A stretch of DNA of 64,000 nt from Octopus sinensis (Eukaryota), in contig NC_043017.1 of assembly GCF_006345805.1 (NCBI RefSeq), forward strand, positions 31,248,001 through 31,312,000. Reading direction: 5' to 3'. Made by a program: the position numbers and the translations under genes. Under the pieces are notes generated by a model. It was not told where the DNA came from. It worked only from the letters and a program-made list of their open reading frames with translations, and searched no databases. This document shows positions 5,134 through 58,740 of the stretch, one piece after another; within the stretch, counting starts at the first letter, position 1; the number at the start of each line of letters is the position of its first letter.

Positions 5134-5290
5134 ATATTGCGAGTCAGTTGTTCGCATTCATTTAAGTCACAAATATATAAACTCATAGCCCAGACTACTG
5201 GATAAGTCTTTTAAAGACTTATCCAGTAGTCGGGGCTATGAGTTTATATATTTGTGACTTAAATGAATGCGAACAACTGACTCGCAATAT
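5134..5290. repeat. Near-perfect ~157-bp palindrome
   Basis: ATATTGCGAGTCAG...AAGTCTTT | AAAGACTT...CTGACTCGCAATAT. Confidence 0.93.
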
Positions 5291-11864: not shown

Positions 11865-12028
11865 CACATGTGTTCGTGAAGTAAGAATTGCTGTTTCGTG
11901 GTGTTAATATTGTTAACAACTGTTGTTTCTTGTTAAACTGTTGAATAACTTAACTGTTGGAGTTTTCAATTGAAAACACTTAGTGCTTGTGGTAGCACGC
12001 GTTGTTCATTCCCCCTTTGGGGGGAAGA

Positions 12029-13558
12029 ATGTCGTCTAGCATGGAGCCTACCGTTGGAGCAGAAATACTTGTTTCTCCTGTTGAGAGGAGGAAATACATG
12101 TCCGGCGAGGAGCCAACTACAGACAAGGAAATAGGGGTTTCCCCCGCTACAAGAAGGAATAGCAGAGAGGATAATATATTTGATATTTTTGGAGATGTGT
12201 CTGAGAGCTCGTCAGAACTTTCACCAGAAGAGTTTCCGACTTTGCCAGAGAACAAAGGCATTGTGTCGAAGAGAATAATTGATGTGCCTAGCATCCAGAT
12301 AGAACCAAAAAATGGAAAAAAAAGTTTTGCGTTGGCTGCTGGGGGTGGAACCCAGATACTGTCGACGAATAAAAGCGAAATTATGAAATACAGCAAAATG
12401 ATGGAAATAAATGACAACAGTGTGAAAATTGAACCTCCGCAAAAGTTATTACAGGAAGAAAAGCAAAAAACAATAATTTTCAAAACATATTGTCTACAAA
12501 ATAGAAAAATTGAAAGAATGTCAGAAGAGAAAATAGAAAAGTGCTTAAAGCCAATATTGGGCGACGTAGTATTTCTGAGAAGAGGAAAAAAATTCGGAAC
12601 GGTGGAAGTAAGGTTCACCAATAAAGAAATAGCACACAAGAACTCAGTGGAAACGTTGAAAACGAACGACGTGGAGTTAATACCCTATTATATGGGGATG
12701 AGGACGTCGCGAATAAAAATTACAAGGGTCCCGCCAGAGGTCGAACCTATGTGGTTGTTGGCGGCAGTCCTAATCAAAGAGGTAGAAAAAATTACTCTCC
12801 TCCAGGCTACCGCTACGGAAAACCCACGCTGGGATGGTAAAACAATTAATCTTCTCATTCAAGCGGACCCTAAAATAATTCAAACAATTCCTGAGACAAT
12901 TGAGGTAGGGGAGGAGAACCTCGTGGTGTTTGTTGAGGGCCGAAAACCTCGATGTTTTTTATGTGGTCAATTAGGCCACATTCGAAGGAACTGCAAGGAA
13001 AATGAAGAAGAGGAGGAAGAGGAGAAAAAAGACAAAGAGGAAGAAGATAAAGAAGAAACAGATGAGAAAAAAACAACAAACAAAAGAAAAATACAACCAG
13101 CAACCCAGCCGAGAGCGGCGACTACTACAGAACAACGACCAAAAAAGACTGCCAGAAGAGAAAAAGAAGAAAAAGGCATAATAGCCGTATACACTAAAGA
13201 TACTGAGCTCATGAGAGACATTCAACTCATAAAGACTGTAAAAAAAATTGATAACCTTTCAGAGGAATTTATCAATTACGACATATATGAAGTCTCAAAT
13301 AAGACTTATAGAATTCTACAAAATAAGTACAGAAAGACTGTATCTTCATTGAGATTAGATTTTAACAAGTCGATATTTCATGGATTACCAGCTCCGATCC
13401 CGCGAGAAAAGGAAAAGGTGGAGATTCCCCCTCCACCTGATAATTCTGTGTCGGTGGTGAGACGGGATTTTGACAAATCTATTTCCCAAGACCGTCCACC
13501 TCCGACCCTGGATAAAAAAAAGGTGGAGGGTCCCCCTCCACCGGACAATCCTAATTAA
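12029..13558 (+). CDS. LINE ORF1 nucleic-acid-binding protein with CCHC zinc knuckle
   Basis: First in-frame ATG is at 12029 (the ORF track opens at TTG 12002). Contains CFLCGQLGHIRRNC (CX2CX4HX4C), an acidic E/K tract and a duplicated Pro-rich C-terminal motif. Confidence 0.9.
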   Translation: MSSSMEPTVGAEILVSPVERRKYMSGEEPTTDKEIGVSPATRRNSREDNIFDIFGDVSESSSELSPEEFPTLPENKGIVSKRIIDVPSIQIEPKNGKKSFALAAGGGTQILSTNKSEIMKYSKMMEINDNSVKIEPPQKLLQEEKQKTIIFKTYCLQNRKIERMSEEKIEKCLKPILGDVVFLRRGKKFGTVEVRFTNKEIAHKNSVETLKTNDVELIPYYMGMRTSRIKITRVPPEVEPMWLLAAVLIKEVEKITLLQATATENPRWDGKTINLLIQADPKIIQTIPETIEVGEENLVVFVEGRKPRCFLCGQLGHIRRNCKENEEEEEEEKKDKEEEDKEETDEKKTTNKRKIQPATQPRAATTTEQRPKKTARREKEEKGIIAVYTKDTELMRDIQLIKTVKKIDNLSEEFINYDIYEVSNKTYRILQNKYRKTVSSLRLDFNKSIFHGLPAPIPREKEKVEIPPPPDNSVSVVRRDFDKSISQDRPPPTLDKKKVEGPPPPDNPN

Positions 13559-13569
13559 ACAGGTAAGTG

Positions 13570-16500
13570 ATGGCTATTCACATTGGTTGTTTAAATGTTC
13601 ATGGCCTGTTGTCAAGCTGGAAGCAAGGACGCTTTCTGAATGACATCAGGTCGAGAAATTTGGATGTAATTGTTGCAACGGAAACCCGGGTGAAGGGGCC
13701 AAGAGATCTGCTCCCCCTCCTGAACGGCTACGAGAAATACGTTTCTCCGAGTCGGGCGGGAGGTGGGGGTGGGGTGTTGGTCCTACTAAAAAGAAACCGG
13801 GTAGCCGAGAAAAAGTTGGTTTTTTCTGACCCAGAAGGCAGGCTGGTCGTTCTCGACTTGACATTCAGTTGTGGCAAGACAATCAGGCTGGTCGCTATTT
13901 ATGCACCAAACATTATTGGCCCGCAAACTGAATATTTTCGTGGCCTAGGAAAGTTCCTAGCCACGTCGCATTCACTAGTAGTGTTAGGAGACTCTAATAC
14001 AATATGTGCAGCACACACAGATTGTGTTGGCTCAAACTCGAACATGAACAGAAAATGTAACACAGGCTTTCGGGATCTGCTAAGTCAATTTCAGCTAGCA
14101 GATCCATATAGGTTGGAGCACCCGAACACTCCACAGTGGACGTGGTCAAATAGTGACGGGTCTACCAGAACATATCTAGATAGGATTTTAATTAGAGAAA
14201 AAGATAAGTCCATAGTTGAGTGTCCACAGTTTTTTCTAGTCAGCTACAGTGACCACAAGATGGTTACCTGTAAACTGACGGTAGATAAGTTGCATAGACA
14301 GGGATCTGGCTACTGGAAACTCAATACGTCCCTTTTGGCGATTGAGGAGTACAGAAAGCGGATCAAGATGTTAATACAGAGGGCATTAACAGGTACCATC
14401 ATTAATAACAAATGGTGGTACGCCCTAAAAAGAGCCATCAAATATGAGTCTATTAGGTTTAGCATAAGTTTAGCTAAGAAGGGACGTAAAATAGGAGATG
14501 GTCTAGTTAAGGAACTAGAAGAAGCCTGGAGGACTGGTAATACAGACCAAGCGAGGGTGAAAAGACTGGAGTTAAACCAGCATCTTGAAGCCCACCACAT
14601 GGGAAGTATTACCAGAGCTAAGTTACGTGCAATGGGAAGTGAAGGAATCAAAGCCGCTGGATGGGCCCGAGTGGTGGAAGCTCGGCAAGGAAATAGTTCC
14701 TCTATTCGGTCTTTGACGAATCAAAATGGTGTCTTGATAAACGAACCCGAGAAAATGTGTGAGGTCTTTCGGGAGTACTTCGCCCAGCTGTTCGGGGGTG
14801 ACGGCGGTCCTGGTGGTGGGAGAGCCCTCGAGGACTTTCTTACCGGGCTGCCGTGCCTCTCGGGGTCGGATGCGGAGTCTTGCGAAGGGCCAATCACACT
14901 GGAGGAGGTGATGGAGGCTTTGGCCGATTGTAAAGCGGGTAAGTCGCCGGGACTTGATGGTCTTCCGTACGAGCTGTATAAATGTATGCCAGACTTGTTC
15001 GGGCAACTACTGACTGACGTGTACGCGAACTGGAAACAGAATGGGTTTATCCCCAGATCTGTGCGCCGGGGAGTAGTGACGTTGGTCAGAAAGGACCCGG
15101 ACAAGGGGGACGTTCTAGAGAATTTCAGGCCCATCACTCTGTTAAACGCAGAAGTGAAGATTTTGGCCAAGGTTCTAGCAAAAAGGTTGGCGCGTGTCGC
15201 GAATGGTATAGTCGGGGAGGCACAGACATGTGCCATCCCAGGCAGAACCATTCAGGATACCCTCCATCTTATTCGCTATACCATAGAGAGGTTTGGTAAT
15301 AAATCTGGCAAAGGTGGGGCATTGGTGCATTTGGACCAGTCTAAAGCTTTTGATAGGGTTGACCATCGATACCTAGCGACTGTACTTGCGCGGTTTGGCC
15401 TGGGCCTTGGCTTCCTCAGGTGGTTTATCGCTTTGTACCACAACATTGACTCGATAGTTCGGGTGAACGGTTTCCTTTCGAAGCCGTTCTGCATCAGACG
15501 CTCGGTTCGTCAAGGATGTCCGCTTTCACCACTTTTGTATGTGATGGCTCTCGAGCCATTACTGCAAAGGTTGAGTGGCATCCCGAGAGAACCAGGACTA
15601 GAGGAGTTTGTTACGGCTTTCGCGGATGATATCACTATCAGTGTAACCACAGTGGTACGCCTACGTGAAGTAGGTAAGACTATTGAGGCTTACGAGGAGG
15701 TAGCAGGAGCAAAGATTAACCGGGAAAAGTCGGTCGGCTTGCAGCTCGGCACCTGGGTTGGCAAGTCGATGCCTTCAGACAGTGTTGTTAGGCGCTGGAC
15801 GGAGGGACCGGTTAAGTTGCTGGGAGTCTGGTTTGGACCAGGCCTCCAGATAGAGAAGAACTGGACGGAGGTATTGAGCAGGGTGGCTGCAGTAGTCAAG
15901 ACTTGGTCTTGGCGGTGGCTATCCCTGAAAGGGAGGGCGGAAGTGGCCAATGTGTTTATCGCATCGGTCATTACCTACCGCCTGACTGTCGTGCCCTGTC
16001 CGGATTCGTGGTTGATCAGGTTGGAGAGACAGCTCTTTCGCTTTTTGTGGAAGGGCAGGTCGCCACTTGTGAAACGCTCTGTCTGCTGTCAAAAGCCTTT
16101 AAATGGAGGTTTAGGGATGCCTTGGTTAATGATGCGCAGACATGCGTTGAGGTTGAGGCACCTCTGGATTCTCCTGGATAGTGAACGGGTGTGGTCTCCG
16201 CTGGCCAGACAAATGTTCCCTGAGTTCAAGAGTTTTTGCGAACAGGAAGCCTGGTGTTCTCGTAGACCGAGGTCGAGTGAGTGGCATAAAGAGTGCCGTA
16301 AGGCCCTCTTGCTGTTCCGGCGCTCGGGCAACGCCAGCGGTGGGGGTTCCACACGGATTTTATATAGTGGGTTGGTAGAGTCTGAATGCGACGATGGCCT
16401 GGGGTCGACTCTAGGTCTCGGATTTATTCAACTGGACAGCTTGTTTCATCGTACATTCGGGTTGAGAACGTTGGACAACTTCCAAAAGTCCTTAACCTGG

Positions 16501-16971
16501 CAATGCTACAGAGGTGCCTTGCCCGTTTGGGATAAGCTCGCAAGACATGGTAAACGTCAGTCGCCGACCTGTCCAAGATGCGGTGGGGACAGGGAAACCG
16601 TCCCTCACGCTATTGTTCAGTGTCCGGAGATAACTGAAATGTGGGCTTATGCTGAACATCTGTTGTCCGGCGAAGGAAGAGTACGGCTGTCGACTGAGTC
16701 AATTATAAAAATTGACCCACCGGGAGTTCTAACGAACGAAGGTAAGAATTGTTTTCTCACGGTTGTAGCAATAGCAAAAGAGGCTGTATGGAATACTAGG
16801 ATAAAAGGAATTAAGACAGGCAACTTTATCTCTGGTGACAATTTACGATCCTTTTTTTCTTTTCATTTGAAAAGGAAACTGTGGCTGGAGAAGAGGTGTC
16901 TGTCAGAGTGTACGTTCCAAAAGAGATGGAAGTATGTTGCACGAGTGTTGTGCGTGCAAGGAACCGTGTGA
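13570..16971 (+). CDS. LINE ORF2: AP endonuclease + reverse transcriptase + C-terminal zinc finger
   Basis: APE motifs LNVHGL, ATET, AIYAP, GDSN, YLDRI, SDH. The YWKLN motif is typical of L1/Tx1. RT motifs KSPGLDG, FRPITLLN, LDQSKAFDRV, RQGCPLSP, FADD. C-terminal CPRC...H...C. No stops or frameshifts over ~1133 aa. Confidence 0.97.
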   Translation: MAIHIGCLNVHGLLSSWKQGRFLNDIRSRNLDVIVATETRVKGPRDLLPLLNGYEKYVSPSRAGGGGGVLVLLKRNRVAEKKLVFSDPEGRLVVLDLTFSCGKTIRLVAIYAPNIIGPQTEYFRGLGKFLATSHSLVVLGDSNTICAAHTDCVGSNSNMNRKCNTGFRDLLSQFQLADPYRLEHPNTPQWTWSNSDGSTRTYLDRILIREKDKSIVECPQFFLVSYSDHKMVTCKLTVDKLHRQGSGYWKLNTSLLAIEEYRKRIKMLIQRALTGTIINNKWWYALKRAIKYESIRFSISLAKKGRKIGDGLVKELEEAWRTGNTDQARVKRLELNQHLEAHHMGSITRAKLRAMGSEGIKAAGWARVVEARQGNSSSIRSLTNQNGVLINEPEKMCEVFREYFAQLFGGDGGPGGGRALEDFLTGLPCLSGSDAESCEGPITLEEVMEALADCKAGKSPGLDGLPYELYKCMPDLFGQLLTDVYANWKQNGFIPRSVRRGVVTLVRKDPDKGDVLENFRPITLLNAEVKILAKVLAKRLARVANGIVGEAQTCAIPGRTIQDTLHLIRYTIERFGNKSGKGGALVHLDQSKAFDRVDHRYLATVLARFGLGLGFLRWFIALYHNIDSIVRVNGFLSKPFCIRRSVRQGCPLSPLLYVMALEPLLQRLSGIPREPGLEEFVTAFADDITISVTTVVRLREVGKTIEAYEEVAGAKINREKSVGLQLGTWVGKSMPSDSVVRRWTEGPVKLLGVWFGPGLQIEKNWTEVLSRVAAVVKTWSWRWLSLKGRAEVANVFIASVITYRLTVVPCPDSWLIRLERQLFRFLWKGRSPLVKRSVCCQKPLNGGLGMPWLMMRRHALRLRHLWILLDSERVWSPLARQMFPEFKSFCEQEAWCSRRPRSSEWHKECRKALLLFRRSGNASGGGSTRILYSGLVESECDDGLGSTLGLGFIQLDSLFHRTFGLRTLDNFQKSLTWQCYRGALPVWDKLARHGKRQSPTCPRCGGDRETVPHAIVQCPEITEMWAYAEHLLSGEGRVRLSTESIIKIDPPGVLTNEGKNCFLTVVAIAKEAVWNTRIKGIKTGNFISGDNLRSFFSFHLKRKLWLEKRCLSECTFQKRWKYVARVLCVQGTV

Positions 16972-17970: not shown

Positions 17971-18859
17971 GATTATGGAAAATTTGGCAGATTATGGAAA
18001 ATTCTTTCGCTTTATACGCTTGTAGGAAAAATGTAGATAACATTGGAAAAGCGAGGAGGTATGTAGCATGACAACGCACCGTCTTTTGATCCACGCCCAG
18101 TAAGCTAAACAACAAGTCTTTATTAACATTTTCATCAATAAATTTTCTACGCTTCCTTTTTATTCAATAATTTCTATCTCTTTCAATAAGTTGTATGTCA
18201 AATAAAATGTAATATCACACCTTCACACAGCACTTACACACACATACGCGCACACACACAGACATACAGAAAGAAAGAAGTTCTCATATTTGGTATACAC
18301 ACACAAACTAATCGAAGAAGCTGTCATAATTTATGTCGGTTCACGCGAATGCGCGAAATTATGCGCATTTTTTTTTGTTTTTGTTTTTGCCATTTTTTAT
18401 TTCAAAATTTATATTAAAATTTTGAAAGAAAAATATTTTTTGCCGAATCATACTGTCGGATTTTTCAAACATAAATTTAAAATAAAACAAGGAAAAGTTC
18501 AAAAAGAAAGACAGGCAATTTAACAAAAAAAAAAAAGAAAGAACTAAAACAAAATTGGCATTTCGTATGTTTTCGCAGACAGAATCAAAACATAACACAG
18601 GGAAAAATAAATAAATCCGAAATATAGTCGAAAAAATAAAGAAAAAAATGTTGCTGACAGATATATGGTGTGTTTCGATCAGAATTCAGCTATACAAAGT
18701 ATTAGAAATTATGGATTTTTTTTTCGTGTTTGTAACTCGAAAAATCTTTTGCCCTTAAATTTTAGATATTTCTTACTCTTATAAGCAAGTGGGAAAATGA
18801 TGTAACTTGCACAAGTAGTTCTGCCCATAAAAAATACAGATAGAAAGTAAAACCAACGT

Positions 18860-22501: not shown

Positions 22502-22577
22502 ACCTCACCGATGATCTGAGGATAATTATGTAAGTAAAATTGCATAATTTATTAACAGTGAAACAATTGTATGGGGT
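22502..22577 (+). ncRNA. Hammerhead ribozyme motif, paralog of 28381-28462 (U4C variant)
   Basis: ACCTCA-CCGATGA-TCTG...CAGT-GAAA-CAATTG-TA/TGGGGT. The stem II loop and downstream sequence are homologous to the 28.4-kb copy. Confidence 0.65.
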
Positions 22578-23376
22578 TAATCTATATTTTTGTTATTTTT
22601 CATTTGTCCTGCTTGCTTACGTTCTTAGTGTGCTAAATTTTTCTTGAGAACAATTCTTCGTGGTTCAGACCCTCGCAGATCTATATCTAGCGTAAGAGCG
22701 TCCACATAGTGGATTCTCTCTCATATTTGTATATATGCACACGTATATATTCATACATATGCATATATATATTATACACACACACACATACAAGCATACA
22801 TGTAGCTATATATATATATAATATATATATATAGCTACATGTATGCTTGTATACATAAATATCTATGTGCGTGAGCGTGTACGCACGTGCATGTATATCA
22901 CATTTTACTATATTTCTGTGATATCGTTTATATTTAACATCCTTCACGGGGATTGTAGGTTCACGACCATCGCGATACACGTTTCTCTGATATCAATACA
23001 AGAACGTATTACATCGGATTGAGTTCTGTTGAGACCTTGCGTAGTTGTACGGTAACAGAATAACGTTTATAGATAAACGATATCTTCAATTTGGTTCCAT
23101 ATATGAGATTGCTTACTTCTTGACGTAAATATAAAAATAATAGATAAAACTCTCGAGGTAGAAAGAGATAACAACTGCGCAGAGAACATAGTTTTCAAAT
23201 ATGTTTTCTCGAAGATTGTATCTTCAATGCTACCATTATGGACTTTATACCATGAAAAATATCAAAAGAATAAAGAAAATACAATTCGAAAGGAAATTAT
23301 GTATTTCATAGCTCTCTATTAACTTCCAACTATCTTATAATATTTCTGTGCGTTTATGTGCATGTACATGCGTATG

Positions 23377-25121: not shown

Positions 25122-25281
25122 AACTTAAGCCAATACATAAGATTAATTAATTTATATTATTTTAAATATATATCAAAATTATTAAAAAAAGATAATTAGT
25201 ATACTAATTATCTCTTTTTAATAATTTTGATATATATTTAAAATAATATTAATTAATTAATCTTATGTATTGGCTTAAGTT
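25122..25281. repeat. AT-rich ~160-bp palindrome
   Basis: Centre TAGTATACTA at ~25200. Arms AACTTAAGCCAATACATAAG / CTTATGTATTGGCTTAAGTT. Confidence 0.9.
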
Positions 25282-25411: not shown

Positions 25412-25464
<53 letters not shown>

Positions 25465-25729
25465 TAAAAGCGGTAATATAACAAAAGAAAGAAAGAGACC
25501 TCAATATTATGTAAATAGAGGAAATTATCCGTAAAATATGTGACAATTATTCAATAGCCAAGATAAATCTCTGAGTTCGGATGCCGAGGTGGAAATCCAC
25601 AACACCATCTCTTCGGTTATCTGACCCAAGAGATGGTGTTGTGGATTTCCACCTCGGGATCCGAAAATTGGATATATATATATAATATATAAATACATAC
25701 ATACATACCTACATACATACATACATAGA

Positions 25730-26268: not shown

Positions 26269-26574
26269 ATTCAACAATAATTGAGGAACGACCACAATAG
26301 ACCGTTCGACCCACTAGAAAGAGCAGCTAGGGCTCCAACCGCAAATAGTAGTAATTCCGAAATTTAAGGAAAAATTAAAAAACATTTACCCTGTATCTTT
26401 AGACAATGCATTGTTTCGGCGTTTTTTTAAGATACATTGTCTAAAGATACAGGGTAAATGTTTTTTAATTTTTCCTTAAATTTCAGAATTACTACTATTT
26501 GCGGTTGGAGACCTGGCTGCTCTTTCTAGTGGGTCGAACGGCCTATTGTGGTCGTTCCTCAATTATTGTTGAAT
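26269..26574. repeat. Inverted repeat (~140-bp arms, short spacer)
   Basis: ATTCAACAATAATTGAGGAACGACC... / ...GGTCGTTCCTCAATTATTGTTGAAT. Confidence 0.92.
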
Positions 26575-39848: not shown

Positions 39849-40259
39849 GGCGCAAGAGTGGCTGTGTGGTAAGTAGCTTGTTTACCAACCACATGGTTCC
39901 GGGTTCAGTCCCACTGCGTGGCATCTTGGGCAAGTGTCTTCTGCTATAGCCCCGGGCCGACCAATGCCTTGTGAGTGGATTTGGTAGACGGAAACTGAAA
40001 GAAGCCTGTCGTATATATGTATATATATATGTGTGTGTGTATATGTGTTCGTGTGTCTCTGTTTGTCCCCCTAGTATTGCTTGACAACCGATGCTGGTGT
40101 GCTTATGTCCCCGTCACCTAGTGGTTCGGCAAAAGAGACCAATAGGATAAAAGTACTGGGCTTACAAAGAATAAGTCCCGGGATCGTGCTGCTCGATTAA
40201 AGGCGGTGCTCCAGCATGGCCGCAGTCAAATGACTGAAACAAGTAAAAGAGTAAAAGAG
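39849..40259 (+). mobile_element. SINE-B
   Basis: Complete copy. Confidence 0.9.
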
Positions 40260-40265
40260 AGAAAA

Positions 40266-40992: not shown

Positions 40993-41176
40993 AATATGTT
41001 ACATTACTCAATAGTCAAGATAAAACTCTGAGTTTCAGATGCCGAAGTGGAAATCCACAACACCATCTCTTCGGTTATCTGGCCATCTGAAGAACCGAAG
41101 AGATGGTGTTGTGGATTTCCACTTCGGCATCTGAAACTCAGAGTTTTATCTTGACTATTGAGTAATGTAACATATT
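40993..41176. repeat. Near-perfect inverted repeat; related copy at ~25461-25670 in opposite orientation
   Basis: Arms AATATGTTAC...CTTCGGTT and AACCGAAG...GTAACATATT. A unique extension to 41254 matches 25461-25530 in reverse complement. Confidence 0.9.
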
Positions 41177-41253
41177 ATTTTATAGATAAATTTCCTCTAT
41201 TTACATAGTATTGAGGTCTCTTTCTTTCTTTTGTTATCTCACCGTTTTTACCA

Positions 41254-41284
<31 letters not shown>

Positions 41285-41374
41285 ATTATTATTTGAGGGA
41301 ATAAAATCCAAACTTACAAGGAAAAAGAATTCAATTTAGACATACTAAATCAAATTCCACACAAAATAATATAT

Positions 41375-41500
41375 ATATAAAATATTAGAAAAACATCCAC
41401 CTTTTATCAATTCAAAATGAATAATTAAATTACACCATTTAGATGGTGTAATTTAATTATTCCTTTTGAATTGATAAAAGGTGTTTTTTTCTGATATTTT

Positions 41501-41505
<5 letters not shown>
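41375..41505. repeat. Palindrome within a (TA)n-associated repeat family (related pieces at ~25300-25415, 43013-43080, 43240-43305)
   Basis: Centre CACCATTTAGATGGTG. The related pieces share ATCCAAACTTACA(A/G)GGAAAAA or AGATGGTGTAATTTAATT. Confidence 0.8.
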
Positions 41506-41558
<53 letters not shown>

Positions 41559-41699: not shown

Positions 41700-42694
41700 A
41701 AACAATCATAACCCTCCATAAAGGAGGTGAAAGGAATACCTCTATAATAAAAACCTTAAAAGGCTTTAAATTAACCGAACAACAGTCAGTTAAAATTGTC
41801 GAGGCATTTCAAAGGATTGGTTCCACCATTGATCGGCCTGAGCGCGGCCTAAAAACTAGTGTGCGGGCCCCTCAGCTTATCAAAAGTACCAGAGAAAATA
41901 TACGGTGAAATCCTCGTCGTTCTGTCTGAAAACTGGCTGCTAAAGCAAAAATAACCGAACATCGATGTATCGAGTGCTGACGGAGGATCTCAGGACCCAC
42001 CCCTAGAAAATGAACCGTCGTCATGAACTCACAAAAGTTTATAACGCTATAAGACTGGAGAGGAATCGTCTTATCCTCTGTCAGATTGCTGAAGGCATGC
42101 TGCCCAACCGGGTGTTCACTAATAAAAACAAATTTGACATCGAACAGACAGTAAACCATCAGAATGATCGACTTTTGGAATGTATCTGGCTCCGTTGAGA
42201 GTAGATACGTAAATGGACGTCAAAATCCACAGTCAGCTATGGTTTGGGCGACTCTTGCAGCCGCTGGAAGGTCTCCCTTCGTTCTTGTGCCCTCAGGTGT
42301 AAAACTTAATGCCCAGTGATACATTAATGACATTCTGGAAGCTGAAATGCTTCCATAGGCGAATGAAAACTTTCGGGGCGCACTTTGAACAGGACTTGGC
42401 CCCGTCACACAGCTCTAAACAGACACAATACTGGATTCAGAAAAATATTCTGTCGTCCATAGGCATAGATTTATGACCCTCAAGGAGCCCAGCAGCTGCG
42501 TGTCACGTGCAAAGCATTCACGCCTAAACTTAAGCCTGTGATTCGAAACAGAGGTGGTCATATCAAATAAATGTGATGGTGTCACAACTGTGCTTCCTTT
42601 GCCATTGCATCGCAACTCTCGGACCCGACATATAACAATATTTTTCTGTGGCAAAATTGAAAACATTTAGTTTCTTTTATTTTGGGGCACCCTG
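41700..42694 (+). pseudogene. Tc1/mariner-superfamily (maT/DD37D-like) transposase relic
   Basis: VFTNKNKFDIEQTVNHQNDR and MVWA...GRSPFVLVPSGVKLNAQ*YINDILE. Right end TTTGGGGCACCCTG|TA. Confidence 0.75.
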
Positions 42695-42798
42695 TATGTA
42701 TATTATATATATATATATATATATATCGCTATGGGCTACTCGTGAGCAGTCATCTAAAAACTTGTTGTGCATTTTGTTGGCAAAAGAAGTTCCTGGAC

Positions 42799-42880
42799 TT
42801 TCCTGAAGAGAAAGCTGCAAAATGGACTCCTTATTCATTCGGAATTAGGGATTTTGCAGACTTCGAAACATATGTCGAAA
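42799..42880 (+). ncRNA. Type I hammerhead ribozyme motif, same family as 45.3 kb
   Basis: TTTC-CTGAAGA-GAAAGCTGCAAAAT...ATTTTGCAGACTTC-GAAA-CATATG-TC/GAAA. Confidence 0.8.
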
Positions 42881-42932
42881 ATAAAATAAAGGGATTTTGT
42901 TAAATCTTCGTTCAGCTCCATTCTTTCCTATA

Positions 42933-42997
<65 letters not shown>

Positions 42998-43080
42998 TAT
43001 ATGTATATATATATAATTATTTGAATATTAATCCAAACTTACAGGGAAAAAATTCAATTTAGAAATACTAAATCAAATTT

Positions 43081-43168
43081 ATTCTACCAATTTTATACGA
43101 TTTTATTGTTATTCTACCAATTATATACGTTTTTATTGGTATTTTACCAATTATATACGTTTTTATTA
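43081..43168. repeat. 30-bp tandem repeat x3
   Basis: ATT(C/T)TACCAATT(T/A)TATACG(A/T)TTTTATT repeated at 43081, 43111 and 43141. Confidence 0.85.
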
Positions 43169-43650
43169 TTTTTTTGCAATTTACTTAATTATTGGTATTT
43201 TTTGTTATTTTAATCTTAATATTTGTATTATATGTAATTTTCTAGATGGTGTAATTTAATTGTTCATTTTGAATTGATAAAACGTGTTTTTTTCTAATTT
43301 ATATAGATGAAATATACAAGAATATATTATTAATCACGATAATTATTTCGACACATCTAGCATCGATCCCTCACGGGTAGGGCATTTAACAAATGGTTCA
43401 TTAGCATCCGGCGGTGCAGATGTGTCTCGTCGGGTGATAAATAGACACAGCTCGTTAAAATAACAGTTCTGCAATGTATCTTCTCAATTCGTAGTAAGAA
43501 AAGCAGAAAATCGAAGGAAATATCTTCATTTACATAGAATAACAAAAATAAAATCCCAGATGCAAAAAAGAAACGAACACGCAATATATGTATATATAGA
43601 AGAAACTATACTGTGGAAGATACCGTGAAGGAAACTCTCATACTATTTTT

Positions 43651-44072
43651 CTCTTTTACTCTTTTACTCTTTTACTTGTTTCAGTCATTTGACTGCGGCC
43701 ATGCTGGAGCACCGCCTTTAGTCGAGCAAATCGACCCCGGGACTTATTCTTCGTAAGCCCAGTACTTATTCTATCGGTCTCTTTTGCCGAACCGCTAAGT
43801 GAAGGGGACGTAAACACACCAGCATCAGTTGTCAAGCAATGCTAGGGGGAACAAACACAGACACACAAACACATACACACACATACACATATATACACAT
43901 ACATATATACGACGGGCTTCTTTCAGTTTCCGTCTACCAGATCCACTCACAAGGCATTGGTCGGCCCGGGGCTATAGCAGAAGACACTTGCCCAAGATGC
44001 CACGCAGTGGGACTGAACCCGGGACCATGTGGTTGGTTAGCAAGCTACTTACCACACAGCCACTCCTGCGCC
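43651..44072 (-). mobile_element. SINE-B
   Basis: Complete reverse-complement copy. Confidence 0.9.
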
Positions 44073-44328
44073 ATGTTGGCTTTTGGGTTCAAAGTGCTCT
44101 TGTTTATATCGCTACCGGAGTTGTTTCGATAAATGTTTGTTCACTCACGGCCTTTTCGCCGTAAAATTGAACCAACAAATAGACATGTAAGAACGAAGAA
44201 CGGGTAAAAATCTTTAAACTTTTCTTTTATTACAATTTCTGATTTCTGGATTACGTAATTTTATATTAAAACTTCCGTCCATAGTATTCCTGTGTATTTT
44301 AGACTTGTAAACGGTGTTGTTGATATAG

Positions 44329-44628
44329 GAGCACTCCGTCGGTTACGACGACGAGGGTCCCAGCTGACAACGATCAACGGAACAGTCTGCTCGTGAAATT
44401 AACGTGCAAGTGACTGAGCAATCCACAGACACGCGTACCCCTAACGTAGTTCTCAGGGAGATTCAGCGTGACACAAATACAGGTACTACTCATTTTTGCC
44501 AGCTGAGCAAACTGGAGCAACGTGAAATAAAGTGTCTTGCTCGAGGACACAACGCGTCGCCGGGAATCGAACTCACGACCTTACAATCGTGAGTCGAATG
44601 CCCTAACCACTAAGCCACGCGTCTTCAC
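44329..44628 (-). mobile_element. SINE with a distinct head/central domain but the SINE-C 3' tail
   Basis: The tail matches SINE-C. The head plus GCAAGACACTTTATTTCACGTTGCTCCAG domain matches 11620-11765. Confidence 0.8.
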
Positions 44629-45037
44629 GTTGTTGGTATAATGTTGTTGTAATTGTGTAAGAGATAAAAATATTTTTATTCTTTAGCATTCCGTTGTATA
44701 CTTTATCAATAATACCAGAGTGAAAGACAGAAATCCAGAGATCTTGTTATTTTTTTTTCACATTATCAGAGTGTTTAGAGTTTCCATAGGACAGTATTTG
44801 AACGAGGTCACATTCAGGAAAGTTTCCATCCAATTTTGAAATGTTTTCAAAGTCTTAACAAATAATTAACTTTAGCCAACGAATTCTTTTAACTTGTGAA
44901 TTAGAATTGTGATATTTGTTACGAAAAATATGAATTTCTAAACGTGAGCATGTGAAATGACTACGTTTCTGTTCTGGTAGTATAAATCATCTTTGGATTA
45001 TACATACATAATACATACATACGTGTGTATATATATA

Positions 45038-45078
<41 letters not shown>

Positions 45079-45281
45079 GAGTAGTTGAATGAAATATCTA
45101 ATTATGGATAATTCGGTTAACCGATACCTGGGTAGCAAGTTCACGTCAGAAAAACACGGTTGAAGCTACATGCCTAGGGCAGAGATCAAGTGCTATCGTG
45201 TGAAAATTTGTGTGTTTTTTTAAATACAAATAAATGAAAGAATGGAGTTGAACGACGAATTAACAAAATTCCTTTATTTTA

Positions 45282-45364
45282 TTTTCGACACATGTTTCGA
45301 AGGCTGCATATTCCTAATTTCGAAGGAATAAGGGGTGCATTATGCCGCCTTCTCATCAGGAAAA
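45282..45364 (-). ncRNA. Type I hammerhead ribozyme motif (left arm of palindrome)
   Basis: Minus strand reads TTTTC-CTGATGA-GAAGGCGGCAT...ATGCAGCCTTC-GAAA-CATGTG-TC/GAAAA. Confidence 0.85.
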
Positions 45365-45397
45365 GCAAGGAACTTGATGCTGACATAAGTTCCTTGC

Positions 45398-45480
45398 TTT
45401 TCCTGATAAGAAGGCGGCATAATGCACCCCTTATTCCTTCGAAATTAGGAATATGCAGCCTTCGAAACATATGTCGAAAA
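45398..45480 (+). ncRNA. Hammerhead ribozyme motif (right arm; G8A core variant)
   Basis: TTTTC-CTGATAA-GAAGGC...GCCTTC-GAAA-CATATG-TC/GAAAA. Confidence 0.7.
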
Positions 45481-45541
45481 TAAAATAAAGGAATTTTGTT
45501 AATTCGTCGTTCAACTCCATTCTTTCATTTATTTGTATGTA

Positions 45542-45647
<106 letters not shown>

Positions 45648-45689
45648 CATATATACATATACATGTATGTATGCACACACACATATATA

Positions 45690-46020
45690 TAAAGCTGGAC
45701 TCAAGAGTCATCTTCGTAGTCATAAAACGAGACAGATGAGTGACAACCTGGCCACTGGTGCTGGTGTAACATACCATGCTAATCATATCTGTCACACCAT
45801 GTGGAAGAGAGTGTAATTCGGCAGGAGGACTTAAACGACATGCAAAGGTACATGAAGCCCAGTTACAACTACAGCCAGCTATTACCGGTAAAGGTTTTAG
45901 TTGCCAATTCTGTACAAGACATTGTAGATCTTTAGCTGGGCTAAAAAGTCACATTCGATCACAGCACGAGTAACAGTTAAGCTTCGTGCAATGGCCATAC
46001 TCGATAACGAGGGGGCAGCC

Positions 46021-46022
<2 letters not shown>
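45690..46022 (+). mobile_element. RTE-like LINE 3' end with repeated C2H2-like fingers (frameshifted)
   Basis: GLKSHLRSH / CGRECNSAGGLKRHAKVH / CQFCTRHCRSLAGLKSH. The 3' UTR GCAATGGCCATACTCGATAACGAGGGGGCAGCCA also occurs at ~38830-38877 and ~38960-39007. Confidence 0.75.
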
Positions 46023-46067
<45 letters not shown>

Positions 46068-47218
46068 GTGTGTGAGTTTGTATTTGCGTGTATGTGTGTG
46101 TGTGCGTGCGTATGTAGATCACATTTAACAGAAGTTAAGTGTTATAGGTTTTTATGCCGTGTTGAATTTAATAGGATTACTTGAATTAAATGTGGGATAT
46201 CGAAAAATTTACTTGATGTATATAACAAAAATCCGATGGTATTATATATATTACACTGGTTTCTGTTTAACAAGAGCTGGATTTAATATAAATATTCACC
46301 TTGTTATATTTCCAATGAAATATTGTTATAACATCAATATCTGTTCTAACAGTATGATCATGTTTTTCTCTTCCGATATTTCTCTCTCTTTCCATATTTC
46401 TGGAGATTGTTATTATATTTGTTCTCTTTCAAATCTTCATACGTCTCATCTCTATTATCTTTTCATCTCGTTGCTATATTATTGTTGTAAGTTCTGTCTG
46501 TAATCTACACATAAGACTCTTATATAATTGCTATCAATATTTTATCCCATTGTACTAACTGTGGTATATCGATTGCTTTTACTGTTCTCTGCCATTTTCA
46601 TTTTTTTTTGCTTAAAATAATGCTTCTTTTAACCATATTTTATGTATTGTTCTGTTGTCTTCTAACTTGATATTTCAAGACATTTCTTGAGTGCATCAGA
46701 ACTCGTGATTAGTCATGTCCTTGGGAGTCAAGGGGGTGTTCGTTTTTTTCAAAATCTGACACCTCCGTCCAGTTCACCCAGCCACGCTTCCATCTCCGAC
46801 GGCAACTTAATTAATTATTCCATTTCCGTCGGCAATTGATCATAGGCCTGTCCTTTTTATCCTAAGTCACAGAAAAGTTTTTTTTTTTCTTTTTTGAGAG
46901 AGAACCGATATAAACATTTATACAGCAGTTTTCAAGGTTTACCCTGTTTTTATTTCGGATGGCAACTGTCTTACACAGGTTGCATTCAAAATCTCCCGTT
47001 CTTAATTTTTTTTTAATGTTGATATGATAGTTTCGATGATAACGAACGGATCTTTTTTACCCATTACTATTTAGTCAGTCAACAAACTTTGAATTTCATG
47101 GGTGAATGTTAAAGTTTATCCAAGACATGAGGTTCACAAGTCTTTGTTGAACCCAGCTATATCTAGCAGCTGTGATGTTGTGTCAGATCATTGATAAAAG
47201 TTCTTATTCTTTGATCTA

Positions 47219-47383
47219 GGCGCAGGAGTGGCTGTGTGGTAAGTAGCTTTCTAACCAGCCACATGGTTCCGGGTTCAGACCCACTGAGTGGCATCTTGGG
47301 CAAGTGCCTTCTGCCATAGCCCCGGGCCGACCAATGCCTTGTGAGTGGATTTGGTAGACGGAAACTGAAAGAAGCCCGTCGTA

Positions 47384-47425
<42 letters not shown>

Positions 47426-47676
47426 ATATATATATAATATATATATATATGTATGTGTGTGTGTGTTTGTATGTCTGTGTTTGTCCCCTAGCATTGCTTG
47501 ACAACCGATGCTGGTGTGTTTACGTCCCCGTCACTTAGCGGTTCGGCAAAAGAGACCGATAGAATAAGTACTGGGCTTGCAAAGAATAAGTCCCGGGGTC
47601 GATTTGCTCGATTAAAGGCGGTGCTCCAGCATGGCCGCAGTCAAATGACTGAAACAAGTAAAAGAGTAAAAGAGTA
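47219..47676 (+). mobile_element. SINE-B
   Basis: Complete copy, tail-to-tail with 47966-48382. Confidence 0.9.
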
Positions 47677-47965
47677 ATGTAAAGATTTGTCTGAGCTTCT
47701 TGGTACGTTACCCCCGTTGAATTTAGTACGATATCCATATCGCCAAATACATTAACGTCAAATAGGACGACTGAGATTGTTCAGCTTGTCACAATTCTAT
47801 TCTCAAGCTTGTATTGTTCTAATGTGAACTTTGAAGTACCATCCTAAAGTTCTAAAGCATATTATAGTACTTGGTTATTGGTTTTGCTGGTTACATGGTG
47901 TCTTCGAAAACCTTTCTCAGCCGGCATGAGGATCAGCGCTTATTTCTAATTTTCCCGTTTTAGTA

Positions 47966-48382
47966 ACTCTCTTTACTCTTTTACTCTTTTACTTGTTTCA
48001 GTCATTTTGACTGCGGCTATGCTGGAGCACCGCCTTTGGTCGAGCAAATCGACCCCGGGACTTATTCTTTTGTAAGCCCAGTACTTATTCTATCGGTCTC
48101 TTTTGCCGAACCGCTAAGTAACGGGGACGTAAACTCACCAGCATCGGTTGTCAAGCAATGCTAGGGGGACACACACAGATACACAAACATACATGCACAC
48201 ATACATATATACATATATACGACGGGCTTCTTTCAGTTTCTGTCTACTAAATCCACTCACAAGGCATTGGTCGGCCCGGGGCTGTAGCAGAAGACACTTG
48301 CCCAAGATGCCACGCAGTGGGACTGAACCCGGAAACATGTGGTTGGTTAGCAAGCTACTTACCACACAGCCACTCCTGCGCC
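47966..48382 (-). mobile_element. SINE-B
   Basis: Complete reverse-complement copy. Confidence 0.9.
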
Positions 48383-50270
48383 TTTATGTATAACTGTATA
48401 TGTTATCTTCGAAAAGAGAGATCTGTATGTGTACATGCATGCGTGTACTATGTAGTTATGAAAGTGAGGGCTGCTTGTCTGTTGGTGGATTTTGTCATGT
48501 AATAAAATATTTTTTTATTCATTACCCTCTTTGTAAAATGCATCAATGATGGCAGGCCTTAGTGCAGAATTCCATCGATTTTCTCACATTCTTTCAATTA
48601 ATCATCCTTTTCTGGGCTTCGTGTGTCTGTTTAGAGACTGAAACTGGTATGATTCAGAAATATCTTCTTCTGTGTCTGCAACTGAATTTTTGTTGGCATA
48701 TTTACCATAAAAATACGCGCTTGAAAGAAGAAACCACGGACAGCATCTATTCTGGGAATATAAACAATCTTTCACTTATCAATTTGCATCTTGTTTATAT
48801 TTAATATGAGTTAGGTGCTATAAATTTACATATTATATTTAATCGAAGTTAGGTGCTATGAATTTGTATCTTCTTACATTTAATAGGAGTTAGGTGTTAT
48901 AAATATATAGCTTTTATCTTGGTATTTGAGTATTACATTTGCTATCTTTAAACTCTTCATCGTTCATTTAACTTTTATCGTCAGTTTTTTTTTTCCTTAT
49001 TGCTCGATTGTTCTTGATGCTGCTATCTTTTACTTCCGCATCAATGCTTTATATAGTTGTTAACAATGTTACATTTACTTATTATCTCCTATCAACCCAT
49101 CTCTCTTTTAAGTACTCTACTCTTCCAGTCTAAATTATATTTACACAACCTTATTATTATCTCACTTTTCCGCAATGCATAGTTCTTATTTCTTAAGATC
49201 TTATTTAAACTTCTATGAATAAACGTTATAGAGTTTTAGCAGTGTTTTGTGTCTGCATCTGTGATATGCAGTCGTAGAAATGTGAGTTATTACTCGATGT
49301 ATAGTTATTGTGGTGTAATTCTTATATTATCTTATATTTCTATTCTCCATTGTATAATTTATGTATAATTCGAGCCTGAGAGGCACAAATCCAATAATCG
49401 TGTTAGTTTTGCTCGCATTATCAGCATCTTCCCATCTTCATCTCCATGTGTCTGCAGTTATCGTTTGTGCCAGGTCGCACGCACGTAGCTGGTCAGACTT
49501 TAAAAGAACTGGAATCGTAACACCTGAATTGAAATATAGAAAACTTCTTTAAGCGGGCCGAGGACGATTTCTATTCTGGTAGCCTAAATAATCCTCAAAT
49601 TACAAGTTTACATCTTATAATACAAATCGGGGACTTAGGTGTCAGCGTTCTTTTAATTGTAATCTTTCCATCTCAGTGGTACCTTATTCTTACAGCTGCT
49701 AAATTCTATCTCAACATCAGCCGTTTATACAATTGTTATCAATGTTTCTTTTAGCAATTTATCTCATTGTATCTCCTAAATTTTTTTCCCAGTTATCTAT
49801 TTATCTCATTGCCACATTGCTCATAGAGCTACGCGCCTCATATCTCCAGATCAATCGTTTATATAACGACTATCAAAGCTTCTCTTAACTCTTTTATTCC
49901 ATCGTATCCACTTTTGATGTTAAAACTCATTTCTCTCATCTTTTAAAGCTAGTTTCTTGCAAAAATGTTCAATTATGCAGCGGTGTTCTTGTAGTCTAAA
50001 ATCATATTTTTATCTTTCATCTTTTACTGGTTTCAGTCATTACACTGCGGCCAAGCTGGAGTACTGCCTTGAAGAATTTTTAGTTGAATGAATCTACCCC
50101 AGAACTAATCAATTTTTTAAGCTTGGTACTTATTCTATGGGACCCTTTCGCGAAGTGCTAAGTTATGGGACGTAAGCACATCATCACCGGTTGGCGACCG
50201 GGAGTGGGGACAAACACAGACGCAAGCGTACACACACATAGTTTTCTATATATATATATATATATATATA

Positions 50271-57842: not shown

Positions 57843-58740
57843 AAGCAGGTTACCCAAGAGAAACCAGAATTTTGCAATGCTATTTCATTCACTTAGGTCT
57901 ACATGTTTATACTTTTATCATCTTCAAAGTATTCCCCATTTGAAGCAAATGCATCGGTCCAGACGCGTTTTCTACAGTTCGAAGCAATGTCGAAACTTTT
58001 GTGAAGTGATGCCTTTTAACGCCTCCATCATTTTGTTTTTACCTTCACCACTTCCATATCTGCAAATTCCATAGCACCAGCTTTCGTTACCAGGGATGAC
58101 CTTAGAAAACAGATCCAGATCAACTTTCAGTTCACGACAGGCATTCAGTTGAGACTGCTTTTAATATTCCGTGAGTAAGCGAGGCATAAATTTCGCTGCA
58201 ACTCGTCTCATTCTTAATTCTTCGCTCAAAATTCGTTGGCAGTAGTACCAGGACACACCAATAATTTTAATAAGTCGTCAAGCGTTTGGTGACGGTTCTC
58301 CAAGATCCCTTCATGAATTTTTATGTTTTTATTCGTTCGTGGGGTCGACGCTCGCTCTGAACGAGGTTTTAGTCTTCAAGCGACGCGTGACCATTCCCAA
58401 AGCGTGGAAACCACTCATAAACTTGTGTTTTCCTCGTAGCACCGTCCTTGAAAGCTGTTTGAAGCATGACAACTGTTTCGGCCGGCGCTTTCTCTAGCAG
58501 AAAGCAGAGATTCGCGGAAGCATGTTGTTCCTTCCTTTCATCTATCACAAAAATCGACGAACAGGGAAGAAGCACTGCAAAACACAGATGTACCACGTGG
58601 CAGCGTGACCTCATTGAACAACGCCGGTCGGTAGACTAATGCCTGAAGGTCGCATCAAGTGGTTTCTAGTGGCAGAAGCCTAAACTACAACGGGCTTGTC
58701 TCACAGGGAACGTTTCCGGTTACTTTTGGTTAACCCCTCG
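57843..58740 (-). mobile_element. Internally deleted mariner element
   Basis: EQHASANLCFLLEKAPAETVVMLQTAF...TQVYEWF.RF..G..SLED HTH. TIR TA|CGAGGGGTTAACCAAAAGTAACCGG, with a degenerate partner at ~57843-57870. Confidence 0.8.

What the first reader, a model, noticed from the sequence alone, without database searches (positions are those of the whole stretch)
45224..45538. Young 315-bp palindrome carrying a hammerhead in each arm
The near-perfect fold-back has an intact CTGATGA core on the minus strand and a CTGATAA variant on the plus strand, each with an extended stem II and a CAT(A/G)TG stem III. A third, non-palindromic diverged copy at 42799-42880 keeps the pairing with changed bases (CTGCAAAAT/ATTTTGCAG). 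A transcript through the palindrome would compete between ribozyme folding and a ~150-bp duplex (siRNA or ADAR substrate). Inference: this is the inverted-pLTR product typical of Penelope-like integration.
Basis: partly seen in the sequence, partly recalled or inferred. Interest (0 to 1): 0.75.

Follow-up and report, generated by a model that had tools for sequence, protein, structure and literature searches.

The report
Back-to-back Penelope-type hammerhead insertion stump
This mirror-image repeat is two short back-to-back copies of a very abundant repeat end, each with a self-cutting hammerhead RNA motif (one with a mutated core), and it is likely an ordinary, inactive insertion scar of a Penelope-type jumping gene, a pattern already described in other animals.

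Summary
The palindrome is in the sequence: 152-bp arms with 2 mismatched pairs around an 11-nt spacer. Each arm holds a type I hammerhead with a palindromic helix III, facing outwards. The minus-strand core is intact; the plus-strand core has G8 changed to A, a private change against the family, so it is predicted dead. The insert is likely 463 bp, not 315: a 148-bp high-copy extension joins the left arm, and (TA)n tracts bound both sides. A second hammerhead-like family in the window has the same build twice, with shared long-arm ends but different joints, so such palindromes are likely made anew at each insertion. This is the published inverted-pLTR-plus-tail architecture of Penelope-like elements. 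Ribozyme versus duplex is no contest: the hairpin wins by about 120 kcal/mol. Open: no Penelope ORF was linked, no independent record spanning the centre was seen, and transcription and cleavage are untested. The scan noted this kind before (227 notes, at least 33 genomes), also in this genome. Ordinary.

The parts
45048..45075 (.). Left (TA)n tract, likely the left half of the target site
   Evidence: Sequence
45076..45223 (-). 148-bp unpaired extension of the left arm; likely the element's one-sided tail (inferred)
   Evidence: High summed contig depth like the arms, against tens in the unique flank (table 2); ends at (TA)n; analogy with the second family. No other copy in the window; no protein match for its one open frame.
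45224..45375 (-). Left arm, 152 bp, element sense on the minus strand
45282..45364 (-). Type I hammerhead motif with intact core (C3 at 45359); helix III palindrome carries one A-to-G change; predicted cut 3' of 45287
   Evidence: position mirrored
45376..45386 (.). 11-nt non-palindromic spacer at the head-to-head joint, 16 nt upstream of each core; origin not determined
45387..45538 (+). Right arm, 152 bp, element sense on the plus strand; ends 63 nt after the predicted cut
45398..45480 (+). Type I hammerhead motif with G8 changed to A at 45408, predicted inactive; predicted cut site after 45475
   Evidence: family majority is G in 4 of 4 runs laid (table 3)
45539..45635 (.). Right (TA)n tract, likely the right half of the target site
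   Evidence: Sequence
42787..42930 (+). Older, diverged copy of the same family, non-palindromic, between (TA)n tracts; core CTGAAGA at 42803; ends near the same place as the right arm

Best explanation
The palindrome is two 152-bp back-to-back copies of a high-copy hammerhead-bearing repeat end lying between (TA)n tracts, likely written in one insertion event by the reverse transcriptase and endonuclease of a Penelope-like element, and likely inactive now. Steps. (1) Shown: each arm points outwards with its 3' end at a (TA)n tract, the 5' ends meet at an 11-nt spacer, and the left arm runs 148 bp further than the right. (2) Inferred: the endonuclease cut a (TA)n tract and both DNA ends primed reverse transcription on the element's RNA, one from an inner start site (right arm end, 45538) and one from an outer site (45076). 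Both cDNAs stopped just upstream of the hammerhead and were joined head to head. Self-priming fold-back on an antisense template, proposed in PMC3846280, would give the same product and is not excluded. (3) Shown: each arm has since taken one change; the plus-arm change hits core position G8. Inferred: the insertion is young and decaying neutrally. (4) Computed: a transcript across the locus folds as a 152-bp hairpin that buries the hammerhead. Inferred: it does not self-cleave and, if transcribed, would be a double-stranded RNA substrate. Whether the parent is a coding Penelope-like element or a non-coding retrozyme that borrows its enzymes is unresolved (about 60 to 40).
For: Architecture matches published Penelope-like insertions: an inverted 5'-truncated copy at the 5' end, a tail at one end, (TA)n bias that hides target duplications (PMC8557442), head-to-head joints (PMC3846280). 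Hammerhead pairs 100-700 bp apart on opposite strands and small palindromic helix III are described for these elements (PMC4209133). A purified Penelope protein cuts and extends both strands of AT-rich DNA and starts at two internal RNA sites that delimit the tail (PMC11167929). The family is abundant: summed contig depth 88,841-343,801 over the arms against 8-101 in the three unique flank bins, in 4 of 4 runs laid (not a copy number). The 148-bp extension is as deep (80,938-457,897). In-window control: a second family has two insertions whose long arms end at the same base before (TA)n (89% over 165 columns; the extension alone 91% over 80) while short arms and joints differ. Arm divergence is 2 of 152, 1.3% (95% interval 0.16-4.8%).
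Against: No Penelope ORF was tied to the family. None of 240 window frames of 55 aa or more matched a Penelope-type protein; the only reverse transcriptase is a LINE. The 30-codon open frame at the end of the extension had 0 hits in 1.84 billion proteins, and two metagenome scans found nothing. The 148-bp extension is about four times the published 30-40-bp tail, and no record was seen bridging it to the arm by 31 letters a side, so it could be a separate repeat. No target-site duplication can be read in (TA)n. No record spanning the centre is among the 32 pieces listed (908,541 not shown). Only one palindromic copy of this family was available, so per-insertion formation is shown only for the neighbouring family. 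Rfam lists no hammerhead match.
Confidence: 0.78

Rival explanations
1. A solo copy inserted first, and the mirror arm arose later at the DNA level by fold-back repair or replication template switching, unrelated to integration.
For: The window holds 8 long palindromes by my scan, several with no hammerhead found, so the genome tolerates or makes fold-backs. The right arm is a subset of the left arm plus extension.
Against: The right arm ends at a (TA)n tract near where the independent copy 3 also ends, which suggests a fixed priming site and not a random repair end. The second family shows the same asymmetry twice. The arrangement is the commonest one reported for Penelope-like insertions.
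Confidence: 0.1
2. The palindrome is itself the mobile unit: a MITE-like or fold-back element, or a palindromic ribozyme element copied whole.
For: High family depth; near-identical arms.
Against: Copy 3 is non-palindromic and has a different sequence upstream of the joint position. The two insertions of the second family have different joints. The hairpin would block the ribozyme.
Confidence: 0.07
3. Assembly or library artefact: a fold-back chimeric read turned a solo copy into a palindrome.
For: No independent record spanning the centre was seen (one search lists 32 of more than 900,000 pieces). The best public run holds 0.60 of the 35 sampled words.
Against: A fold-back read would mirror everything, including the 148-bp extension and the left flank; here the mirror stops at 45538 and goes into a different flank. 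The arms differ at 2 sites, one change on each arm against copy 3, and there is a non-palindromic spacer. The joint sits 16 nt from the core, as in a biological truncation.
Confidence: 0.05

Closest known systems
Endonuclease-positive Penelope-like element insertions with inverted pLTR and one-sided tail (PMC3846280, passages read; PMC8557442, passages and supplement rows)
   Same: Head-to-head 5'-truncated copies, an extension at one end only, (TA)n target with no readable duplication.
   Different: No ORF remnant between or beside the arms; the extension is 148 bp against the published 30-40 bp; the parent element is not identified.
Type I hammerheads in Penelope pLTRs (PMC4209133, parts 1-2 of 4 read)
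   Same: Type I order, short helix I (5 bp), long helix II, small palindromic helix III suited to dimers, G10.1-C11.1 pair; pairs on opposite strands 100-700 bp apart are already noted there.
   Different: [quoted passage not shown]
Poseidon element PAc of the green anole (PMC11167929, parts 1-2 of 4 read)
   Same: Offers the mechanism: both strands of AT-rich DNA cut and extended, two internal start sites defining the tail; G8 needed for hammerhead cleavage.
   Different: In PAc the ORF begins at helix II; here the long arm has no long open frame.
Metazoan non-LTR retrozymes (PMC7229834, passages; bioRxiv 10.64898/2026.07.22.740005, part 1 of 5 and passages)
   Same: Non-coding repeat with a type I hammerhead, linked to Penelope-like elements.
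   Different: Retrozymes are defined by tandem units each with a hammerhead; no tandem unit of this family is in the window.

Membership tests
Type I hammerhead ribozyme | Core CUGANGA and GAAA with a UH cleavage site in type I order, three helices | tested here: met
   Minus-strand arm:
Type I hammerhead ribozyme | C3-G8 pair intact (plus-strand arm) | tested here: not met
   A at 45408 with C3 unchanged; family majority G. G8 change abolishes cleavage in PAc; the known natural variant compensates with U3.
Type I hammerhead ribozyme | Match to an Rfam hammerhead model | tested here: not met
   None among 150 listed of 182 matches at E up to 1; 32 not shown
Type I hammerhead ribozyme | Covariation supports the helices | tested here: inconclusive
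   1 of 23 pairs changes on both sides; 163 of 500 shuffles as high; three sequences only
Type I hammerhead ribozyme | Self-cleavage at the predicted site | not testable with these tools
   Needs a bench assay; even the isolated unit gives helix I a probability of only 0.02-0.03
Penelope-like element insertion | Inverted 5'-truncated copy joined head to head | tested here: met
Penelope-like element insertion | Hammerhead with palindromic helix III near the element end | tested here: met
Penelope-like element insertion | One-sided tail belonging to the element | tested here: inconclusive
   148-bp extension is high-copy and ends at (TA)n; no bridging record seen; met for the second family in the window
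Penelope-like element insertion | AT-rich or (TA)n target, or a short target duplication | tested here: met
   (TA)n on both sides of the insert and of copy 3; such tracts make up 3.5% of the window; a duplication cannot be read
Penelope-like element insertion | Repeat is the pLTR of an ORF with reverse transcriptase and GIY-YIG endonuclease | tested here: inconclusive
   No such ORF in 240 window frames, no protein hit, no related locus; the whole genome is not held
Non-LTR retrozyme | Tandem units each with a hammerhead | tested here: not met
   Only three dispersed or inverted copies in the window; the rest of the genome could not be searched
Non-LTR retrozyme | Circular RNA of unit length | not testable with these tools
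   No RNA reads laid

The most novel reading that the evidence does not exclude
The family is a non-coding ribozyme retroelement that borrows Penelope enzymes, and each insertion is written by double priming from two fixed RNA sites about 150 nt apart, a tail four times the published length. The resulting perfect hairpins silence their own ribozyme and, being common in this genome, feed double-stranded RNA to editing and small-RNA pathways.
Probability: 0.15. Interest if true: 0.45.

Novelty: new member of a known kind. Interest (0 to 1): 0.17.

Why it matters
As one locus it matters little: it is a known footprint. Its use is as a data point. How Penelope-like elements form their inverted ends is still described as open (PMC8557442; PMC11167929). 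A high-copy family with short stumps and an unusually long one-sided extension would let one test double priming against self-priming by counting arm ends and joints across a genome. The hairpin is also a plain example of how such insertions could add long double-stranded RNA, if transcribed.

Tried and rejected
Whole genome: not held, so copies, joints and the parent could not be counted. Public runs: 20 of 24 listed rows hold part of the stretch, no RNA holder listed. Laying 4 runs on 42600-46100 gave depth and variant tables, but the joint, loose-end and piece tables were filled by neighbouring abundant repeats, so the centre joint is neither shown nor excluded; the bin 45525-45641 has no depth because simple repeats were skipped. 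Related loci: 1 match in viral contigs is chance, with no hammerhead core upstream; 0 in two metagenome scans. Parent ORF: 240 of 264 window frames were scanned (24 short frames inside the LINE were left out); none Penelope-like. The 30-codon frame in the extension had 0 hits. Host gene: a weak MOZ/SAS match at 18190-18414 (E 0.006 Pfam; E 0.036 PDB) was rejected as chance, so it is unknown whether the locus is intronic. Circular permutation (retrozyme unit): the extension does not align with the sequence upstream of copy 3 (298 of 300 and 17 of 300 shuffles as good). Published sequence: three short motifs are absent from the one supplement file held for PMC8557442 and two from that of PMC13282606; bioRxiv supplements are closed and may hold the family. 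The microRNA matches reflect the hairpin only. Sequence look-ups in the scan's notes found no look-alike. The single A-to-G change in the left helix III could be RNA editing before insertion, but one site carries no weight.

Full report
Observation. The palindrome is as described. Arms 45224-45375 and 45387-45538 are 152 bp each, with 2 mismatched pairs and an 11-nt non-palindromic spacer. Each arm holds a type I hammerhead motif in the order helix I, core, helix II, GAAA, helix III, UC, helix I. They face outwards from the centre, one per strand. The cores start 16 nt from the spacer and the predicted cuts lie 63 nt from the outer arm ends. A third copy at 42787-42946 is 84.4% identical over 160 columns. 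My relaxed descriptor finds 7 hammerhead-like motifs in the window and 1 in 30 shuffles together; it was tuned after seeing the motifs, one of the 7 (52684) is doubtful, and copy 3 is missed because the base of its helix II is broken. No Rfam hammerhead model is among the 150 listed of 182 matches.

State of the two ribozymes. The two mismatches are one change per arm. On the plus arm, core position G8 reads A at 45408. In all 4 runs laid, nearly all depth at that place shows G (for example 26,223 of 26,424 in one run, table 3), so the A is private to this copy. A G8 change abolishes cleavage in the Penelope element PAc, and the known natural variant pairs A8 with U3, so this arm is predicted dead (inference). 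On the minus arm the core is intact and the helix III palindrome has one A-to-G change; copy 3 and the plus arm have the perfect form. The computed dimer helix weakens only from -7.0 to -6.0 kcal/mol. Copy 3 gives thin support for the fold: of 12 helix II pairs, 1 changes on both sides, 1 is gained and 2 are broken, no better than shuffles (163 of 500).

Competition with the duplex. A transcript across the locus makes the antisense arm first and the hammerhead arm second, on either strand. The hairpin folds at -257.6 (plus) and -266.1 (minus) kcal/mol; forcing the hammerhead gives -138.9. The probability of the innermost helix I pair falls from 0.02-0.03 in the isolated units to below 1e-76 in the palindrome, and it already collapses when a transcript starts 30 nt or more upstream of the arm. 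Only a transcript starting in or next to the spacer could fold the ribozyme, and it would need a second copy for the dimer form described for these motifs. So there is no balanced switch. Whether the locus is transcribed is unknown.

The insert is larger than the palindrome. The right arm runs directly into (TA)n. The left arm is followed by 148 bp (45076-45223) and then (TA)n. In one search the summed contig depth is 88,841-343,801 over the two arm bins and 80,938-457,897 over the bin inside this extension, against 8-101 in the three unique bins to its left. This shows that both parts are abundant repeats; the tool warns that it is no copy number, and no record was seen bridging arm and extension by 31 letters a side. 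A control lies in the window. A second hammerhead-like family (core CCGAAGA) has insertions at 40993-41256 and 25459-25666. Their long arms match at 89% over 165 columns and end at the same base before (TA)n, including a roughly 76-bp extension beyond the paired part; their short arms and joints differ. There the extension is element sequence and the palindrome is made per insertion. I carry this over to the present family by analogy.

Mechanism. Penelope-like elements are reported to insert with an inverted 5'-truncated copy at the 5' end, a 30-40-bp tail at one end and a bias for (TA)n that hides target duplications (PMC8557442, passages), mostly head to head (PMC3846280, passages). Hammerhead pairs 100-700 bp apart on opposite strands were noted in 2014 (PMC4209133, parts 1-2 of 4). 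Purified PAc protein cuts and extends both strands of AT-rich DNA and starts at two internal RNA sites that delimit the tail (PMC11167929, parts 1-2 of 4). The simplest account is that both ends of a cut (TA)n tract primed on the element RNA from two sites, and the two short cDNAs were joined. The double-priming wording comes from earlier notes of this scan and is not shown here. Self-priming on an antisense template is an equal alternative at this locus. Arm divergence is 1.3% (interval 0.16-4.8%), so the insertion is young unless the arms were homogenised. On the scale given for Octopus vulgaris repeats (0.09 equals 25 million years; PMC13282606, passages) this would be about 2 million years; that the genome is octopus-like rests on unchecked scan notes and my recall of its SINE, not on a test.

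What was not found. No Penelope ORF: 240 of 264 frames of 55 aa or more were scanned against Pfam and the only reverse transcriptase is a LINE at 13567-16971. The long arm has no long open frame; its last 30 codons are open but match nothing among 1.84 billion proteins. No related locus came from viral or metagenome contigs, and the genome is not held. So a coding parent and a non-coding retrozyme-like parent (PMC7229834, passages; bioRxiv 10.64898/2026.07.22.740005, part 1 of 5 and passages) cannot be told apart. No independent record across the centre was seen among the 32 pieces listed. An artefact is still unlikely, because the mirror stops short of the extension, each arm has its own change and there is a spacer.

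Novelty. The architecture and the ribozyme type are in print. I found no paper describing this family or cephalopod pLTR hammerheads in detail: a search for hammerhead ribozyme with cephalopod returned 4 papers, 2 listed, and short motifs were absent from two supplement files; subscription journals, repeat libraries and bioRxiv supplements were not searched. Penelope-like elements cover 6.83% of the Octopus vulgaris genome in 190 families (supplement row), and cephalopod Naiad and Hydra elements are listed as (TA)n-targeting. The window itself has 8 long palindromes. The scan's notes hold 227 findings with these words in at least 33 genomes and 30 in this genome; these are unchecked and were not used as evidence. 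Verdict: a real, young, likely inactive insertion stump of a known kind. The only mildly unusual point is the length of the one-sided extension. Interest 0.17.

Noticed in passing
window 40993-41256 and 25459-25666: Second hammerhead-like family (core CCGAAGA, a U4-to-C variant, with a 9-nt palindromic helix III). Two head-to-head insertions between (TA)n tracts share the long-arm end and a roughly 76-bp extension but differ in joint and short arm.
   Followed up: partly
window 28387 (+), 43433 (-), 53196 (-): Three further unrelated type I hammerhead-like motifs with 8-nt palindromic helix III; the one at 43433 has core CCGACGA and lies in a high-copy repeat related to 41280-41510; 28387 has a decayed relative at 22520-22611.
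   Followed up: partly
window 5134-5290, 25122-25281, 26269-26574, 41398-41483, 22788-22852: Other long near-perfect palindromes (arms 32-140 bp) in which my descriptor found no hammerhead; 26269-26574 starts beside a (TA)n tract.
   Followed up: no
window 11996-16971 (+): Intact-looking two-ORF LINE: ORF1 520 aa with a zinc knuckle, ORF2 1134 aa with endonuclease, reverse transcriptase and zinc-binding domains; L1/Tx1-like by my recall.
   Followed up: partly
window 45770-45970 (+): Short frame with a C2H2 zinc-finger match (best E 6e-7) in a very high-copy repeat 230 bp right of the palindrome; origin unexplained.
   Followed up: no
window 58372-58635 (-) and about 41875-42400 (+): Mariner/Tc1-like transposase remnants: an HTH_48 match (E 2e-4) and a stop-interrupted stretch recognised by eye only.
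   Followed up: no
window 43656-44072, 47218-47677, 47967-48383, 40016-40264: Copies of an extremely abundant SINE-like repeat in both orientations (91-95% alike; depth in the tens of millions); inverted neighbours could form longer double-stranded RNA than the palindrome itself.
   Followed up: no
window 44599-44997: The unique left flank is polymorphic among runs: two runs match it with 0-1 differences, two differ at several sites and carry a 7-base insertion, so alleles exist in which presence of the insert could be tested.
   Followed up: no
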